Shown: positions 1,315 to 24,141 of the stretch, one piece after another
Layout: each line of letters starts with the position of its first letter
Numbering within the stretch: position 1 is the first letter of the stretch
IMG/VR virus record: IMGVR_UViG_3300043756_000029
Span: 1-36,905 of that record
Strand: one strand, 5' to 3'
Length of the DNA stretch: 36,905 nucleotides
Source of the DNA: a virus
Lineage: Duplodnaviria > Caudoviricetes
Program-made: the position numbers and the translations under genes
The notes under the pieces: model-generated
What the model saw: only the letters and a program-made list of their open reading frames with translations
Told to the model about the DNA's origin: nothing
Database searches by the model: none

Positions 1315-1725
1315 CTAGCGTGTTTTGGCGGGCTGGGCGATCGAATATTCCTTAGCCGTGCGCACATAGCCGTCGGCCGTCTTTTTTAAGTAGCCGCGAC
1401 GCACCAGCGATCCCAGGTTGCGCGACCGCATCGGGCGCGGTTCGGTCGCGCTGAACTTGCGCAGAAACGCCGCCGACTTCACACGTTTGTCGTGGACGGT
1501 CATGCGGCGCTGGTCGCGCGGCCGGCCGTTCGTGCGGCGCGCAGCGTCGATCTGGATCGCCTGATCGATCACGCGCTGGGCGCGGGCGCGCTTCACGGTC
1601 GCGGCCTGCCCGTGCAGCAGCCGCAGCGTCAGCCGGATCGCGGCGGCCGCCTCTTCGTGCGCGCGCAACAGGCGCAGCAGCTGCGCGGGGCCGCTTAATC
1701 GTTCGCTATCGTCGTCGCGTTTCAT
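1315..1725 (-). CDS. Hypothetical protein: N-terminal amphipathic helix, C-terminal winged-helix-like motif
   Basis: ATGA overlap with the upstream gene; C-terminal 'NLGSLVRRGYLKKTADGYVRT' resembles a wHTH recognition helix plus wing. Confidence 0.6.
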   Translation of the reverse strand: MKRDDDSERLSGPAQLLRLLRAHEEAAAAIRLTLRLLHGQAATVKRARAQRVIDQAIQIDAARRTNGRPRDQRRMTVHDKRVKSAAFLRKFSATEPRPMRSRNLGSLVRRGYLKKTADGYVRTAKEYSIAQPAKTR

Positions 1726-2228
1726 AGTGATCCCTGTCGGCGCTGGTAGCGGTCGACGCGCAGACGATGCGCCTGATCCCGTCGTGCGCGCGTGCGGCTT
1801 TTCTTCGCGCGACGTTCGGCCCGTTCGGCTTGCATGTCGCGCGACTTCGTTTTCAGGGCGGCGAAGGTGACGAACGATCGGCGCTGCGTGTCGGGCCGGT
1901 GCTGGGTCGCCCAGTCTTCCAGCGGGGCCGCCCCGCCCAGCCCTTTGAGTTCGAATGCGGCCCCCAGCACGGCCAGCGCGATCGCGCCCAGGCCGGGCAC
2001 GGCCAGCTGTGCGGGCGACAGGTTATGGAAGGCGTCGCCGGTCGAGGTCACCCTGAACGTTTTGAGCACCGCTGATAGGTGCTGCGCGGCGATGAAATTA
2101 AAACAGCTGACGTGTGCGAGATCCTGGCGGGTGAACTCGTCACCCCCGATCGTAAGTACGCTAGCCGTCGCCCGATCGCGCAACAGTCGAGATGCCGGTA
2201 AGCCGAGAACCTTGGCTGACCAGTCCAC
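1722..2228 (-). CDS. Protein with an RNA polymerase alpha-CTD-like (HhH) domain and a basic tail
   Basis: GTG start with SD AGGGGG; residues ~55-97 align without gaps to E. coli alphaCTD L270-L312 (LK-x7-GD-x12-PxLG-x3-L-x10-GL). Confidence 0.6.
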   Translation of the reverse strand: MDWSAKVLGLPASRLLRDRATASVLTIGGDEFTRQDLAHVSCFNFIAAQHLSAVLKTFRVTSTGDAFHNLSPAQLAVPGLGAIALAVLGAAFELKGLGGAAPLEDWATQHRPDTQRRSFVTFAALKTKSRDMQAERAERRAKKSRTRARRDQAHRLRVDRYQRRQGSL

Positions 2229-2257: not shown

Positions 2258-2272
2258 ATTCGTGTCACGAAT
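2258..2272. promoter_or_regulatory. 15-bp palindrome ATTCGTG-T-CACGAAT, candidate operator
   Basis: Perfect 7-bp arms in an AT-richer intergenic region between divergent genes. Confidence 0.45.
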
Positions 2273-2304: not shown

Positions 2305-2333
2305 TTGTAACCCGCTGGCGGCCGGCGTAGTGT
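2305..2333 (+). promoter_or_regulatory. Sigma70-like promoter for the ORF antisense to the repressor
   Basis: TTGTAA (2305-2310) - 17 bp - TAGTGT (2328-2333). Confidence 0.55.
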
Positions 2334-2383
2334 TGCAGGTCTTTATGGTTGATTGTCGTAAACCTGACGAAAGGGCGACGACG

Positions 2384-2671
2384 ATGGCGACCGCGCGTAA
2401 ATTCCCAGACGACGCCGATGTGATCCTGCAGTGGCCGGGCCGCCCCGGTCGGGTGATCCTGCCGGCGAATAGCGATCTCGCAGCGGCGATCGACGCGCTG
2501 GTGCAGCTGCCGCCGGATGACCAGCGGGCGATCATTGCGGTGATCGATCTGGCGCGTCGCGCTTCAGGGCGTGTCGCGGCCGCAGCCCGCGCGTCACACG
2601 ACGCAGCAGTTTCAAAAAAACGTCTTTTCCCTCTGGTTCAAGGAGGGCGTACATCTCTACCCATTCCCTGA
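2384..2671 (+). CDS. Small protein convergent with and overlapping the repressor; candidate antirepressor
   Basis: Own promoter, SD-like GAAAGGG before ATG 2384; helix pair 'LAAAIDALVQLPPDDQRAIIAVIDL'; last 140 nt overlap the repressor gene. Confidence 0.5.
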   Translation: MATARKFPDDADVILQWPGRPGRVILPANSDLAAAIDALVQLPPDDQRAIIAVIDLARRASGRVAAAARASHDAAVSKKRLFPLVQGGRTSLPIP

Positions 2672-2936
2672 ATAACGGATCGTCTGCGGTGGGCAACTGC
2701 AGCAGCGCGTCGAGGCTAATGTGAAACGTGGTTGCGATGCGGAACAGCGTGGGAAAGTCGGCGTTGAATTCGCCGCGCAGGTAGCGACTGATCCAGTGCG
2801 ACGGCCGGCCGATCGCGGTCGCGAGGGTTTCCTGGGTCATGTCGATCGCGAGCAGTTTGTTTTTCACCTGCCGGCGCGCGAAGTCATGGATCGCCTGATC
2901 GTCGAGATCTGCTCGCAGCGTGCGCGCGCCGGGCAT
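2532..2936 (-). CDS. XRE/HTH_3 immunity repressor (CI-like, no S24 peptidase domain)
   Basis: HTH 'MTQETLATAIGRPSHWISRYLRGE...TLFRIATTFHISLDALL'; divergent from a Cro-like gene; only 134 aa. Confidence 0.85.
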   Translation of the reverse strand: MPGARTLRADLDDQAIHDFARRQVKNKLLAIDMTQETLATAIGRPSHWISRYLRGEFNADFPTLFRIATTFHISLDALLQLPTADDPLFREWVEMYALLEPEGKDVFLKLLRRVTRGLRPRHALKRDAPDRSPQ

Positions 2937-2945
2937 GGTGGCGTG

Positions 2946-2954
2946 ACTATACCA
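2946..2954 (-). promoter_or_regulatory. Extended -10 promoter for the repressor (near-leaderless mRNA)
   Basis: Minus strand TGGTATAGT ending 9 nt before ATG 2936; no SD in between. Confidence 0.55.
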
Positions 2955-3067
2955 GAATTCGAAAAACGTATTTTCCTATTCAGCTAACGAATTATCGCTA
3001 GCCGGCTGAGTTCACTGCACAGTGTGACAGGCGAGTGACCAAAAATCGCCAGTTAGGGCCGTTCAGC

Positions 3068-3104: not shown

Positions 3105-3356
3105 GTGACGAAACGTCGCAAGCCGGCCCGCCGGTCCTATCCCGATCTCGCGACCTACATTGAACAGTCGGGCGACCAGCAATGGCACATCGCCGCGCGC
3201 TGCGGCACGACGCAGGCCAACATCTCGCGGATCGCGCGCGGCACGGCGCACCCGCGCCCGCTGCTGGCGCTGCGACTGGCGCAGTACTGTCGCATCCCGG
3301 TCGACAGTTTTGCCAAAGCCGTCGTCGATCGGCAGAAGACGGAGCCGGCCGCGTGA
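3105..3356 (+). CDS. Cro-like XRE HTH regulator
   Basis: 'QQWHIAARCGTTQANISRIARGTAHPRPLLALRLA' HTH_3 pattern; first gene of the rightward operon. Confidence 0.85.
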   Translation: MTKRRKPARRSYPDLATYIEQSGDQQWHIAARCGTTQANISRIARGTAHPRPLLALRLAQYCRIPVDSFAKAVVDRQKTEPAA

Positions 3357-9109: not shown

Positions 9110-9360
9110 TCTGGCAAGACACGAAACGCGTGGCGACCTGCCGGCGCTGCCGCGTGCGTATCGTCTGGGCGACCGATCTGGAAAAAGGGCACGTCGCCTA
9201 TTCGTTTCCGCTGATCGTCGTCGAGAAACAGCCGCAGCTGTTCGACACGCGCGTCGTTGAATACGTCGACGTCGGCCGGTCACCACTGCACGACGATCGG
9301 TGCATCAAACTGAAAAAGAACCGGGTGATCACGGGCAAGGTGGCGCGACATGGCGTTTAA
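9085..9360 (+). CDS. Putative Zn-ribbon protein (CRRC...H...C)
   Basis: SD GAGGGG before ATG 9085; 'CRRCRVRIVWA...PLHDDRC'. Confidence 0.65.
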   Translation: MGKARTRLIWQDTKRVATCRRCRVRIVWATDLEKGHVAYSFPLIVVEKQPQLFDTRVVEYVDVGRSPLHDDRCIKLKKNRVITGKVARHGV

Positions 9361-9556
9361 TCGCGGCGTCGACGACGACGACCTGCTGACCCCGGAACAA
9401 GCGGCGCGACGCCTGGGCATTTCCGCCGGCACGCTGCGGCACTGGGTCTCGCAGAAACGGATCGAATACGTGCGCATGGGCCGCCTGACGCGCTTTCGGC
9501 CCGACCAGCTGCAGCGGCATATCGACCGATCCGTGCAACGGGAGATCAAGCGATGA
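9350..9556 (+). CDS. Xis/HTH_17 (MerR-like) DNA-binding protein
   Basis: 'LLTPEQAARRLGISAGTLRHWVSQKRIEYVRMGRLTRFRPDQL'. Confidence 0.85.
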   Translation: MAFNRGVDDDDLLTPEQAARRLGISAGTLRHWVSQKRIEYVRMGRLTRFRPDQLQRHIDRSVQREIKR

Positions 9557-9750
9557 ACCAACCGCAAACTTTTGATCCGTTCAAACTGGCGGGCGACTTG
9601 GCGCGCTTCGCCGAATCATTTCCGAAACTGATCGACGCGATCGACCGCATGATCGAGTCGCATCGGCGACTAATGGCGTCGCAGGATCGCCTGTTGGACG
9701 CGTTGATCGACGCGCTGCGCGATCATCTGCCGGCGCGTGACGTGCACTGA
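9553..9750 (+). CDS. Small coiled-coil hypothetical protein
   Basis: Overlapping start/stop at both ends; SD GGGAG. Confidence 0.65.
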   Translation: MNQPQTFDPFKLAGDLARFAESFPKLIDAIDRMIESHRRLMASQDRLLDALIDALRDHLPARDVH

Positions 9751-20586: not shown

Positions 20587-20690
20587 TGCACTGGACCTAC
20601 GCTGATCTGATGGCCCTGCCCGAAGACGTGTACGAAACGCTGGTCGACTGGATTAACGACACGCTGACCGCTGACCATGCCCACCGTTAA
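20176..20690 (+). CDS. Tail assembly chaperone, -1 frameshift extension (gpGT-like)
   Basis: A9 at 20531-20539; -1 frame reads KKNGGRSRLRSDFRICQLMHWTYADLMALPEDVYETLVDWINDTLTADHAHR to TAA 20688-20690. Confidence 0.75.
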
Positions 20691-23600
20691 CGCGAAGTTT
20701 ACCGCCGACTTCGACAGCTTTTTCGCAGCGGTGCAGCGCGCCGACTACGAACTCAAGCTGTTTTCGTCGCAGACGTCGACGACCGGCGACGCGCTGGGGT
20801 CGATGGTCGATCGGTTCAGCGGGATCCGGATCATCGAACAAGCGACGCTGATGACCCGCGCGATCGACGAAGTGGGCGGGGTGTCGCAGCTGACCGCGAA
20901 AGAACTCGCCGAAGTCGGCCGGGTCGCGAACGAAGCCGTCGACAAGATCAAGGCGATCGGCGGGACGCCGCCGGCCGACATGTTGAAATTGGCCGACGCC
21001 ACGAAAGCGGCGGCCGGCGGTACCGATCTCTGGTCGGGCGCGCTGAAAACGGCGACCGGGTTTCTCGGGGCGCTGGGGATTCAGACGTCGCTGCAAGGCG
21101 TGATCAATTTCGGCAAGGAGATCTTAGACACGGCTGACGCGACGGTGAAGATGGCGCAGCAGACCGGCATGACGGTCGACGAAGTGCAGCGCCTGCAGGC
21201 CGTCAGCGATCAGACGTCGGTGCCGATGGCCCGCCTGACGGCCGCCGTGCAGACGCTGGAAGAAAAACTCGGCAAGGAGGGGGCGAACAGCGGCGCGGCG
21301 GCGGCGCTGCGGCGGCTGGGGATCGGGTATGCCGAGTTCATGCAAGCGACGCCGTACGACCAGCTGCTGATGATCTCCGACGGCTTCCAGGGCGTGACCA
21401 GCGAAACCGATCGGGCGGCGATCGGCACGGCCCTGTTCGGGAAAAATTGGCGGCAGATCATCCCGGCGCTGCTGGCGGATATGCGCGACATCGCCGACAC
21501 GGCCCCGGTGATGTCGGACGCGACGATCAAGGCGTACGACGACATGCACGCGTCGGTGAAACGGTTCTGGACCGACACGGTCGTACTGACCGGCGAATCC
21601 GTCGGCACGATCCTGAAATTTCTCGGCACCCTGGGCGCGCAGTTCAACGAGAACATGCGCAACGTGCGGGCGGCGATCGGCACGGCCACGCCCGACGATC
21701 TGAAGAAATTGCAGGACGCGACGCGGGCCGCCAGCGACGAGGCGTACGGCTTCGGCGAAGCCTGGAAGGCCAGCGGCGCGACGGAGCAGGCGTTCACCGT
21801 GCGCCAGAACGCGATCGCGATGAAAGAATTTCGCGAACAGGGCGTGCAGCCGCTGACCCTGTCGCTGACCGACACGGCGGCCGCCGAACAGGCGCTGACG
21901 AAAAGCGCGCTGGCGTCGATCGACGCGAACAAGGAACACAAAAAGGCGACCGACGCGGCGGCGAAGGCGCAGGCCGACTTTCGCGACGCGATGAAAGCGG
22001 CGGCCGACTTCGCTAAGCCGATGGCCGATCAGCTGGATTCGATCAACGGCGCGGTCGTCGCCGGGGCGATCGCCCTGAACGAAAACGGCATGCGCTGGGA
22101 TCAGATTCGGGTGTTGTACGGGCTGACCGCCGGCCAAATGAAAGCCGTAGAACAGGCCGCCAAGGATCAAGCGAAAGCGGTCAGCGACAGCGCGAAAGCG
22201 GCGGCCGACGCGGCCAAGGCCGAACAGCAACACGCCGAGGCACTACAGACCGCCGAATATCTGGCGCGGCCGCTGGTCGACCGCCTGGGCGAACTCGATA
22301 CCGCGACGGTCGACGCGGCGAAAGCCGCGCTCGCGCACGGCCTGAACCTAAAAGACGTCGCGGCCGCGTACGGCTTGTCGGCCGACGCCGCCCGCAGCGT
22401 GCAGGAGGCGTACAAGGCGGGGATCGATCAACAAAAAGAATATGACAAATGGGTAAAAGACACGGCCGCCGACGCGGAGAAAGCGTACAAGGCGTGGTCT
22501 GACGCCCAGGACAAAACGATCAAAACGACCAACGACTACTACGACAAGACAACCGCCCTGCACGAAACCGCGATGCAAAAGATCGATCGCGAATGGGCGA
22601 ACGCGTACCTGTCGCTGCCCGATCAACTGGAAGTCGGATCGGCACTCTGGCAGAAAGCCGTCGACGCGATCGACGCGTATTACAGCGCGTCGCTGGAGGA
22701 TATGAAGAACAAGACCAAGGGATTCGGCGACTACCTGTCAACGACCATGCCCAAAGCGATCCTGTCGGCGTTTCAGGGCGGCGGCGACGTCGGGAAAACG
22801 ATCGGCGCGACGATCGGCACCGGGCTGACGACGGCGGAAACGACGATCGGCAAAACGATCACCGACAACGTCTCCAAGCTGCCCGGCCTGCTGGGATCGT
22901 CGCTGGGCACGATCGTCGGCCCGCTGGGCACGCTGGCCGGCGGCTTCGTCGGCGACCTGATCGGGAAAATGTTCGGGTCGAATCCGGAAAAGGAAGTCAA
23001 CAAAGTACGGCAGGCGTTCGTCGACGCGTCGGGCGGGCTGGATCAGCTGAATCGCAAGGCGTTCGACGCCGGCATGACGCTGAACGATCTACTCGGCGCG
23101 AAGAACATGGATCAGTACACGGCCGCCGTCGACAAGCTGAACGCGGCGTTCGGGGCGAAGGATCAACTCGACACGGCGCGCGACGGCTACATCGCGATCG
23201 CGGGCGGGATCGACGCGCTGACCGAACACGCCTATACCGCCGGCACCAGTCTCGACGCGATGCTCAACGCCAAGTCGGTCGACGACTACAACGCGGCGAT
23301 GCAGGGGCTGTCGGACGCCTTCGCCTTTCAGGATCAGGCGCTATCGGACGTCGTCAGCACGGCCAGCAAGTACGGGATCACGCTGGAGCAGTTGGGGCCG
23401 GCGCTGCAGAAACAGGAACTCGACAAACAGGCGCAGCAGCTGTTCAAGGATTTCGAAACGCTGAACGCGGCGGGCATCGACACGCAGGTGATCGCGACCG
23501 GCATGGCCGATTCGATCAACGAATACGTGAACCGGGCGCTGCGCATGGGCACCGAGATCCCGATCGCCATGAAACCCATGCTCGAAGACATGGTGCGCAC

Positions 23601-24141
23601 CGGGCAGCTGGTCGACGAAAACGGCAACGCGATCACCAGCCTGGAGGATTCGGGCGTCAGCTTCGCGATGACGATGTCGCAAGGGTTCCAGGCGATGATC
23701 GACAGCGTCGAAAAACTCACGACGGTGATTTCGCGCAGCCTGGGCGTCGCGCTGGACACGACGCGGCAGCAGCTGACGACGATGCCCCGGTCGCTGTCGG
23801 TCGACGTCCAGTACAACGATCCCGGCTTCCGCGCGCCGGCCGTGAACCTGGACGCGCTCGACGTGCCCGGCTATCAGGAAGGCACGAAGGGCCGGTTCGT
23901 CGACTTCGGGCGCGGGTCGCTGGTCATGCTGCACGAAAAAGAGGCGGTCGTGCCGCAAGGCGAAGCCTTGCAAGCGATCGGCGCGGCCCCGGTCGAAGCC
24001 GGCGGGGCCAACGTGTCGATCGTGATCCAGGCGCAGGGGGCGTTTTTCGACACGCCCGGCGACCTGCAGCGGCTGGCCGACAAGGTCAACGCGGCGCTGA
24101 CGCAAAAGTACGGGACAACGACGCGCATGCGGGCGGCGTGA
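20677..24141 (+). CDS. Tape measure protein (1154 aa)
   Basis: Long Ala-rich helical ORF after TAC; C-terminal 'GT.G...DFG.G..VMLH..EAVVP'. Confidence 0.93.
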   Translation: MPTVNAKFTADFDSFFAAVQRADYELKLFSSQTSTTGDALGSMVDRFSGIRIIEQATLMTRAIDEVGGVSQLTAKELAEVGRVANEAVDKIKAIGGTPPADMLKLADATKAAAGGTDLWSGALKTATGFLGALGIQTSLQGVINFGKEILDTADATVKMAQQTGMTVDEVQRLQAVSDQTSVPMARLTAAVQTLEEKLGKEGANSGAAAALRRLGIGYAEFMQATPYDQLLMISDGFQGVTSETDRAAIGTALFGKNWRQIIPALLADMRDIADTAPVMSDATIKAYDDMHASVKRFWTDTVVLTGESVGTILKFLGTLGAQFNENMRNVRAAIGTATPDDLKKLQDATRAASDEAYGFGEAWKASGATEQAFTVRQNAIAMKEFREQGVQPLTLSLTDTAAAEQALTKSALASIDANKEHKKATDAAAKAQADFRDAMKAAADFAKPMADQLDSINGAVVAGAIALNENGMRWDQIRVLYGLTAGQMKAVEQAAKDQAKAVSDSAKAAADAAKAEQQHAEALQTAEYLARPLVDRLGELDTATVDAAKAALAHGLNLKDVAAAYGLSADAARSVQEAYKAGIDQQKEYDKWVKDTAADAEKAYKAWSDAQDKTIKTTNDYYDKTTALHETAMQKIDREWANAYLSLPDQLEVGSALWQKAVDAIDAYYSASLEDMKNKTKGFGDYLSTTMPKAILSAFQGGGDVGKTIGATIGTGLTTAETTIGKTITDNVSKLPGLLGSSLGTIVGPLGTLAGGFVGDLIGKMFGSNPEKEVNKVRQAFVDASGGLDQLNRKAFDAGMTLNDLLGAKNMDQYTAAVDKLNAAFGAKDQLDTARDGYIAIAGGIDALTEHAYTAGTSLDAMLNAKSVDDYNAAMQGLSDAFAFQDQALSDVVSTASKYGITLEQLGPALQKQELDKQAQQLFKDFETLNAAGIDTQVIATGMADSINEYVNRALRMGTEIPIAMKPMLEDMVRTGQLVDENGNAITSLEDSGVSFAMTMSQGFQAMIDSVEKLTTVISRSLGVALDTTRQQLTTMPRSLSVDVQYNDPGFRAPAVNLDALDVPGYQEGTKGRFVDFGRGSLVMLHEKEAVVPQGEALQAIGAAPVEAGGANVSIVIQAQGAFFDTPGDLQRLADKVNAALTQKYGTTTRMRAA

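What the first reader, a model, noticed from the sequence alone, without database searches (positions are those of the whole stretch)
2305..2936. Antisense ORF overlapping the repressor resembles the repressor's own C-terminal helical hairpin
Seen: the + ORF 2384-2671 has its own promoter and SD and overlaps the repressor 3' end by 140 nt. Its segment SDLAAAIDALVQLPPDDQRAIIAVIDLA aligns in hydrophobic register, including LxP, with the repressor's PLFREWVEMYALLEPEGKDVFLKLLRRV, but it has no HTH. The repressor lacks an S24 autocleavage domain. Established: such repressors need an antirepressor, and SinI inactivates SinR by mimicking its oligomerisation helices. Inference: a dual switch using antisense transcription plus a dominant-negative dimerisation mimic.
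Basis: partly seen in the sequence, partly recalled or inferred. Interest (0 to 1): 0.7.

Follow-up and report, generated by a model that had tools for sequence, protein, structure and literature searches.

The report
Phage repressor's tail-to-tail self-mimic gene
A soil phage and many distant relatives carry a small gene that overlaps the end of the repressor gene on the opposite strand and resembles the repressor's tail without its DNA-binding part, so its product likely binds and disables the repressor to start the lytic cycle, as AimX does in Bacillus phages.

Summary
ORF 2384-2671 has gene-like codons outside the overlap. All 21 strong repressor-relative loci from two viral scans carry a convergent, overlapping, HTH-less ORF with the same two-helix motif. 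That includes 8 of 8 loci fetched after the profiles were fixed. The weak promoter, missed by the consensus scan, recurs upstream in 12 of 15 loci and in 6 of 8 held-out loci. No S24, ImmA-type protease, ANT, Bro-N or TPR_12 match was found in the phage.

Caveats: this window's own pair shares only 2 of 30 residues, so the resemblance is family-level. Binding, expression and the trigger are untested, and no shared operator was found. The antisense arm is unsupported, and in the closest tested system (AimX/AimC) it did not matter.

Best reading (about 0.7): an AimX/SinI-like antirepressor that replaces one repressor subunit. It is not an arbitrium member and not Pfam SinI. New variant of a known kind.

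The parts
2305..2333 (+). Putative weak promoter of the small gene (-35 TTGTAA, 17 nt, -10 TAGTGT), 50 nt before the ATG
   Evidence: Below the consensus scan threshold. Same pattern upstream of the matching ORF in 12 of 15 loci vs 1.1 expected and 6 of 8 held-out loci. Not shown to fire.
2370..2375 (+). Shine-Dalgarno-like site, 8 nt before ATG 2384
   Evidence: Sequence; a run of 4 or more SD-type bases before 11 of 15 related starts
2384..2671 (+). Small convergent gene, 95 aa, no HTH; candidate self-mimic antirepressor. Residues 1-28 lineage-specific, 29-58 conserved hairpin, 59-95 unconserved run-on across the repressor's 3' end
2468..2557 (+). Hairpin core (residues 29-58, helix-LxP-helix) matching the repressor C-terminal core
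   Evidence: hhalign; hydrophobic column profiles correlate r=0.87 in register, at most 0.42 when shifted (22 loci)
2532..2671 (.). 140-nt tail-to-tail overlap
   Evidence: Overlap 23-248 nt in 22 loci, same reading phase in 21 of 22, repressor stop falling at core residue 24 in 13 of 22
2532..2936 (-). XRE repressor (cI-like), 134 aa: HTH domain plus two C-terminal helices (87-98, 101-116); no S24 domain
   Evidence: Pfam/PHROG, AF2 model pLDDT 79, no S24 in contig, divergent from a cro-like gene heading recombination and replication genes
2592..2681 (-). Repressor C-terminal hairpin core (residues 86-115), predicted oligomerisation surface
   Evidence: The family profile's best PDB hit is SPC32H Rep through its C-terminal helix (E 4.4e-5), a domain that tetramerises and binds antirepressor Ant (PMC9986798, passage)
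2490..2511 (+). Left arm of a 22-nt, 91% inverted repeat, in frame (ORF residues 36-43)
   Evidence: 0 of 200 codon shuffles reach it; seen in this window only among 15 loci
2692..2713 (-). Right arm of the inverted repeat (repressor helix 5)
   Evidence: RNA spanning both arms folds with z -3.9
2258..2272 (.). Perfect operator-like dyad ATTCG-N5-CGAAT between the leftward operon and the small gene's promoter
   Evidence: 3 of 5 genome-wide matches (at most 1 mismatch) lie in the immunity region; 1 of 100 shuffles gives 5. Binder not identified.
2957..2992 (.). Two further operator-like dyads (2957-2971, 2978-2992) just upstream of the repressor gene
3105..3356 (+). cro-like HTH gene heading the early rightward operon (RecT-like, exonuclease, MT-A70, DUF1376)

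Best explanation
The small gene encodes an HTH-less look-alike of the repressor's C-terminal two-helix hairpin that likely takes the place of one repressor subunit, which would leave the repressor unable to pair and hold its operators and so would release the cro-led lytic operon. Shown here: a real, conserved gene with its own ribosome site and promoter-like element, lying tail-to-tail with an S24-less XRE repressor and matching the repressor's tail in register at family level. Inferred: that the repressor tail is its dimerisation surface, that the small protein binds it, and that the result is derepression. Unknown: what turns the small gene on. The overlap is best read as an inherited arrangement, possibly from an ancient inverted duplication of the repressor's 3' end, rather than as a second, RNA-based switch.
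For: (1) Conservation. All 21 loci from the two repressor-anchored viral scans with E <= 2e-12 and a match reaching the C-terminal helices have a convergent overlapping ORF with the hairpin; L039 and a second repressor subfamily (L093, L044, L006) have it too. Repressors are only 45% identical at the median and ORF cores 20%, so motif and position are kept while sequence drifts. (2) Blind ranking. A repressor-tail-only profile ranks the convergent ORF first in 11 of 15 loci. In 8 held-out loci the small-ORF profile ranks it first in 8 and the repressor profile first in 6 and second in 2, among 85-112 segments each. (3) Register: hhalign E 6.5e-6; hydrophobic profile r=0.87. (4) Promoter pattern and SD conserved. 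(5) Gene-like codons outside the overlap. (6) No S24, M78 protease, ANT or Bro-N found in a record estimated complete. (7) A relative whose HTH is fused to an integrase has neither the hairpin nor the convergent ORF (L143). (8) Precedent: AimX lies convergent with and sometimes overlapping aimC beside a cro-like gene, heterodimerises with AimC and blocks its oligomerisation and DNA binding (bioRxiv 10.1101/2025.11.23.689978); SinI hooks onto SinR's two C-terminal helices (PMC3163267 abstract).
Against: The window's own pair is weak (2 of 30 identical; own repressor ranks 10 of 12 for this ORF). Cognate pairs beat non-cognate ones only marginally (p 0.14, n=12; p 0.03, n=18, not corrected for relatedness). 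The motif is a short amphipathic helix pair, and the margin over the next segment in the window is modest (16.1 vs 13.9); the leave-one-out small-ORF profile ranks it 2 of 619. Synonymous bias between close pairs is modest (third-position differences 6 of 9 and 16 of 33; none in L093/L044). Many repressors with a similar tail have no such ORF: it was seen at 6 of 26 repressor ends examined in L1-anchored loci and not in L140, so it is not required by this repressor type. No shared operator over the promoters of 19 loci, so no inducing signal is identified. Oligomerisation through the tail rests on analogy; fold-search hits to SinR and DdrO are all above E 1e-3.
Confidence: 0.7

Rival explanations
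1. The small protein binds the repressor but modulates or repurposes it (co-repressor, stabiliser, or changer of operator preference, as SlrR does to SinR) instead of inactivating it.
For: Sequence cannot give the sign of the effect. The promoter looks weak and no shared operator was found, which would fit steady expression in the lysogen. SlrR repurposing of SinR is mentioned in the PMC3163267 abstract.
Against: SlrR is described as SinR-like, whereas this ORF has no HTH, and a subunit without an HTH should reduce DNA binding (inference). The tested HTH-less precedents (SinI, AimX) are antagonists.
Confidence: 0.1
2. The protein mainly targets other XRE repressors with the same kind of tail (co-resident prophages or host regulators), for cross-induction or competition.
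For: The window's ORF scores 47 against the L136 repressor tail and 1 against its own; cognate preference across the family is weak.
Against: Strict tail-to-tail linkage to its own repressor in every strong relative; helical-hook binding depends on hydrophobic register more than identity (inference).
Confidence: 0.08
3. The functional product is the antisense transcript (RNA pairing or polymerase collision), and the peptide is secondary. A dual switch with a real but minor RNA arm is included here.
For: Conserved promoter facing the repressor, conserved overlap, no terminator found before the repressor's 5' end.
Against: The protein motif, start codon and SD are conserved, mostly outside the overlap. 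In AimX/AimC the antisense arm was tested and found inconsequential.
Confidence: 0.08
4. A non-functional relic of an inverted duplication of the repressor's 3' end.
For: Fixed phase and geometry of the overlap suggest one origin; no match in protein family libraries.
Against: Open frame, start, SD, promoter pattern and hydrophobic register persist at 20% median core identity, with no DNA-level likeness to the repressor tail left.
Confidence: 0.04

Closest known systems
AimX-AimC-AimL module of extended arbitrium phages of Bacillus (phi106, phiW23, BMBtp14; bioRxiv 10.1101/2025.11.23.689978; read: abstract, passages, sections 9, 10, 11, 14)
   Same: Small helical protein gene convergent with, and sometimes overlapping, the 3' end of an HTH repressor with a helical C-terminal oligomerisation domain; cro-like gene divergent from the repressor; small proteins more divergent than the repressors.
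   Different: No AimR-type TPR receptor or AimP found here; no shared LexA-type box found; the ORF is 57-114 aa with longer overlaps (23-248 nt); the resemblance to the repressor tail is visible in sequence and register, which the sections read do not claim for AimX (supplements not seen); soil phages at 66% GC with unknown host; binding untested.
SinI-SinR of Bacillus subtilis (PDB 1B0N; PMC3163267, abstract read)
   Same: HTH-less small protein sharing the two-helix hook of an XRE repressor's C-terminus; proposed heterodimer in place of the homo-oligomer.
   Different: No match to Pfam SinI PF08671; phage lysis-lysogeny context; genes convergent and overlapping (sinI-sinR co-oriented, recalled).
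Rep-Ant of Salmonella phage SPC32H (PDB 5D50/5D4Z; PMC9986798, three passages read)
   Same: Best PDB sequence hit of the repressor family, running through the C-terminal helix; that domain oligomerises and binds the antirepressor.
   Different: Rep is longer (199 aa). Ant is, as recalled, a separately encoded LexA-controlled protein and not a copy of the repressor tail; no ANT-family match found here.
TF-smORF / Qtip-type small antirepressors of Vibrio phages (PMC10432266, abstract read)
   Same: [quoted passage not shown]
   Different: Those are driven by a neighbouring transcription factor; no such activator was identified here, and the abstract does not describe tail mimicry or overlap.

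Membership tests
Extended arbitrium AimX/AimC | aimR (TPR receptor) and aimP upstream of aimX | tested here: not met
   No TPR_12 match in the contig; none among 41 ORFs scanned with Pfam; the upstream neighbour is the divergent L1 operon. No dedicated AimR profile was used.
Extended arbitrium AimX/AimC | Small ORF convergent with, sometimes overlapping, the repressor's 3' end; cro-like gene divergent from the repressor | tested here: met
Extended arbitrium AimX/AimC | Repressor = HTH domain plus helical C-terminal domain | tested here: met
Extended arbitrium AimX/AimC | Small protein of 29-80 aa, mainly helical | tested here: inconclusive
   95 aa here (57-114 in relatives), with a helical core of about 30 aa; single-sequence model low confidence (pLDDT 53)
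Extended arbitrium AimX/AimC | Heterodimer with the repressor that blocks oligomerisation and DNA binding | not testable with these tools
   Needs two-hybrid, SEC-MALS and EMSA
SinI (PF08671) | Match to the SinI/SinR dimerisation profile | tested here: not met
   0 matches in the contig; control rings in B. subtilis; none among 15 aligned ORFs
SinI-like working principle | HTH-less protein sharing the repressor's C-terminal helix pair in register | tested here: met
   (family level; weak for this window's own pair)
LexA-controlled antirepressors (Ant/Tum type) | LexA box over the antirepressor promoter; ANT or Bro-N domain | tested here: inconclusive
   Three recalled LexA-type patterns matched 0, 2 and 0 of 19 upstream regions and no dyad was shared by more than 4; the host's LexA box is unknown. 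No ANT or Bro-N match.

The most novel reading that the evidence does not exclude
A widespread soil-phage family inactivates its S24-less repressor with a self-mimic born by inverted duplication of the repressor's own 3' end. The mimic is made from a weak promoter with no shared operator, so it sets a titration threshold for lysis without arbitrium or LexA input. Repressor and mimic can still exchange sequence through in-frame inverted repeats, as the 22-nt helix-5 repeat in this phage hints.
Probability: 0.2. Interest if true: 0.7.

Novelty: new variant of a known kind. Interest (0 to 1): 0.5.

Why it matters
Many temperate phages have short XRE repressors without a self-cleavage domain, and how these are switched off is largely open. 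If this reading holds, the AimX/SinI principle operates outside Bacillus and without arbitrium, as a compact tail-to-tail module that gene callers can miss (this ORF was not in the 15-billion-protein collection). It can be found by a simple rule: a convergent ORF matching the repressor's tail. About 20 diverged natural repressor/mimic pairs give a ready panel for testing binding specificity and for finding the inducing signal.

Tried and rejected
Complex prediction of repressor 80-120 with ORF 22-64, each as an alignment: no answer (ipSAE 0.06 and 0.03, mark 0.32, controls not folded); not counted for or against.

Expression: no RNA holder listed. DNA contigs confirm the stretch letter for letter in one run that may be the source, with no inversion joints.

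Direct homolog searches with the ORF found nothing: viral contigs, protein database, named phages, ESM Atlas (below 0.9). The four phmmer hits among 1.84 billion proteins are sums of weak repeats in long repetitive proteins and were rejected. The repressor alone was also a singleton; relatives were reached only through the neighbour L1 and then alignments A2 and A5.

PDB search with the small-ORF profile: nothing below E 0.6. The single-sequence AF2 model of the ORF was too weak to search with. Foldseek of the repressor gave only HTH-driven hits above E 1e-3.

The helix-5 register suggested by BLASTP was rejected as the family register, because it is specific to this window. Recent duplication from the cognate repressor tail was rejected: no DNA likeness in 14 of 15 loci. 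Overlap phase was not used as proof of selection: one phase already makes up 46% of convergent overlaps in E. coli (PMC2174442 passages), and common descent explains 21 of 22.

Host: no L1 relative in GTDB genomes; one repressor relative in a MAG titled Candidatus Eisenbacteria, 0 of 200 further genomes of that phylum; host left open. An alphaCTD-like fold for L1, a recalled resemblance, found no PDB support.

Literature searches for a non-arbitrium version of this module surfaced the AimX preprint as the only match to this layout; subscription journals are not covered.

Full report
Context. The window is a whole 36.9-kb virus record estimated complete. It is a temperate tailed phage with integrase, terminase, capsid, portal and tail genes, 66% GC, held by a soil metagenome run. 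The finding lies in the immunity region: leftward operon, small + strand ORF, XRE gene on the minus strand (2532-2936), then a divergent cro-like HTH gene (3105-3356) heading RecT-like, exonuclease, methyltransferase and DUF1376 genes. The XRE gene is therefore the likely repressor (inference from layout). No S24, M78 protease, ANT, Bro-N, SinI or TPR_12 match was found in the contig, while controls rang.

The ORF is a real gene. It runs 2384-2671 and overlaps the repressor by 140 nt. Its 49 codons outside the overlap look like this phage's genes (0.46 bits/codon, GC3 0.82; reached by 1 of 256 shadow windows), while the overlapping tail does not. So the functional part is about 60 residues and the rest is run-on. 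Direct searches found no homologue, so I anchored on neighbours. The leftward gene L1 has 37 relatives, which gave 124 loci, 95 distinct. At 26 repressor ends examined in these loci, 6 had a convergent overlapping ORF with a repressor-tail-like hairpin: L090, L089, L039 (close repressor family) and L093, L044, L006 (second subfamily); the others showed none, one had an HTH-type convergent ORF, and one could not be evaluated. Repressor-anchored viral scans returned 17 and 19 loci. All 21 distinct loci with E <= 2e-12 and a match into the C-terminal helices carry the convergent ORF (L128 and L129 were read as L090 and L089; several are near-duplicates, about 17 lineages). Of the weak hits, L139, L140 and L141 showed none and L142 was not examined. 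L143, an HTH fused to an integrase, has neither hairpin nor ORF.

The resemblance is real at family level. A profile from repressor tails only ranks the convergent ORF first among all six-frame segments in 11 of 15 loci, and 1 of 618 in the window. Those 15 were picked by eye, so the cleaner test is the 8 loci fetched afterwards: first in 8 of 8 by the small-ORF profile, first in 6 and second in 2 by the repressor profile. Across 22 loci the hydrophobic column profiles correlate at 0.87 in register and at most 0.42 shifted; both share E4, R12, L14, P16 and R19 as commonest residues. Against this, the window's own pair shares 2 of 30 residues, its ORF fits nine other repressors better than its own, and cognate preference is weak (p 0.14 and 0.03). 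Synonymous bias in close pairs is modest.

Expression signals. SD-like runs of 4 or more bases precede 11 of 15 starts. No operator is shared over these promoters, so the trigger is unknown. An ATTCG-N5-CGAAT dyad occurs three times in the immunity region out of five genome-wide; whether the repressor or the cro-like protein binds it is not determined.

Mechanism. The repressor model has a five-helix HTH domain and two C-terminal helices. Its family's best PDB hit is SPC32H Rep, aligned through the C-terminal helix, a domain reported to tetramerise and bind antirepressor Ant (PMC9986798, passages). SinI inactivates SinR by hooking onto the equivalent helix pair (PMC3163267, abstract). [quoted passage not shown] The most likely working is therefore subunit replacement leading to derepression (0.7). 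Steps shown: gene, conservation, register, absence of other recognised inactivation genes. Steps inferred: tail-mediated dimerisation, binding, sign of the effect.

Origin. The overlap has the same phase in 21 of 22 loci, and the repressor stop falls at core residue 24 in 13 of 22. This suggests one ancient origin, plausibly an inverted duplication of the repressor's 3' end (inference); no DNA likeness to the tail remains. Unique to this window is a 22-nt in-frame inverted repeat linking ORF residues 36-43 to repressor helix 5. It may be a recent templated overwrite and may explain why this ORF's first helix departs from the family pattern; DNA contigs show no inversion. It is unexplained.

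Membership and novelty. It works like AimX/SinI but is not a member of either: no arbitrium receptor was found and there is no PF08671 match. Searches of the open literature surfaced no description of this layout outside arbitrium phages. Earlier notes of this scan report the same layout in several other genomes, one apparently in similar soil phages; these are unreviewed and not independent evidence. Verdict: real, well supported as a gene family, mechanism probable but untested; new variant of a known kind; interest 0.5.

Noticed in passing
window 2490-2511 / 2692-2713: 22-nt, 91% in-frame inverted repeat between the small gene and repressor helix 5, unique to this phage among 15 loci. An RNA spanning both arms folds strongly (z -3.9). 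An inversion between the arms would swap the two proteins' C-termini in frame; no such joint was seen in DNA contigs.
   Followed up: partly
window 1722-2228 (-), alignment A1: Conserved unnamed protein family (37 relatives, 124 loci in soil phages) heading the leftward operon, with invariant C, G and P positions; no Pfam, NCBIfam or PDB match and none in GTDB genomes.
   Followed up: partly
L143 / G001:C179 about 21006 onward: The same repressor HTH family fused in frame to a tyrosine-integrase-like region (398-aa open frame, identified by eye from its motifs), lacking the C-terminal hairpin and the convergent ORF; record titled Candidatus Eisenbacteria MAG.
   Followed up: partly
L082 3789-4004 (+), L084 3498-3986 (+), L002 3040-3486 (+): Hairpin-like HTH-less ORFs downstream of other repressor subfamilies but co-oriented with the repressor; possibly the same principle in SinI-like orientation.
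   Followed up: no
L030 3096-3332 (-): A convergent ORF with a 4-nt overlap that reads like an HTH protein instead of a hairpin mimic: a different occupant of the same slot.
   Followed up: no
L002 2322-2972 and 3487-3951: Two tandem paralogous repressor-like genes with small ORFs between them.
   Followed up: no
window 2946-2954 (-) and relatives: Extended -10-like element about 10 nt before the repressor ATG with no SD, suggesting a near-leaderless repressor mRNA; a similar element and a TTGACA for the cro direction recur in relatives (6 and 10 of 12).
   Followed up: no
window 23510-23524: A second perfect copy of the operator-like dyad inside the long tail-region gene (20677-24141).
   Followed up: no
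window 9350-9556 and 9553-9750 (+): Excisionase-like gene far from the integrase, followed by a 65-aa amphipathic ORF that outscored the true ORF on the leave-one-out small-ORF profile but lacks the LxP turn.
   Followed up: partly
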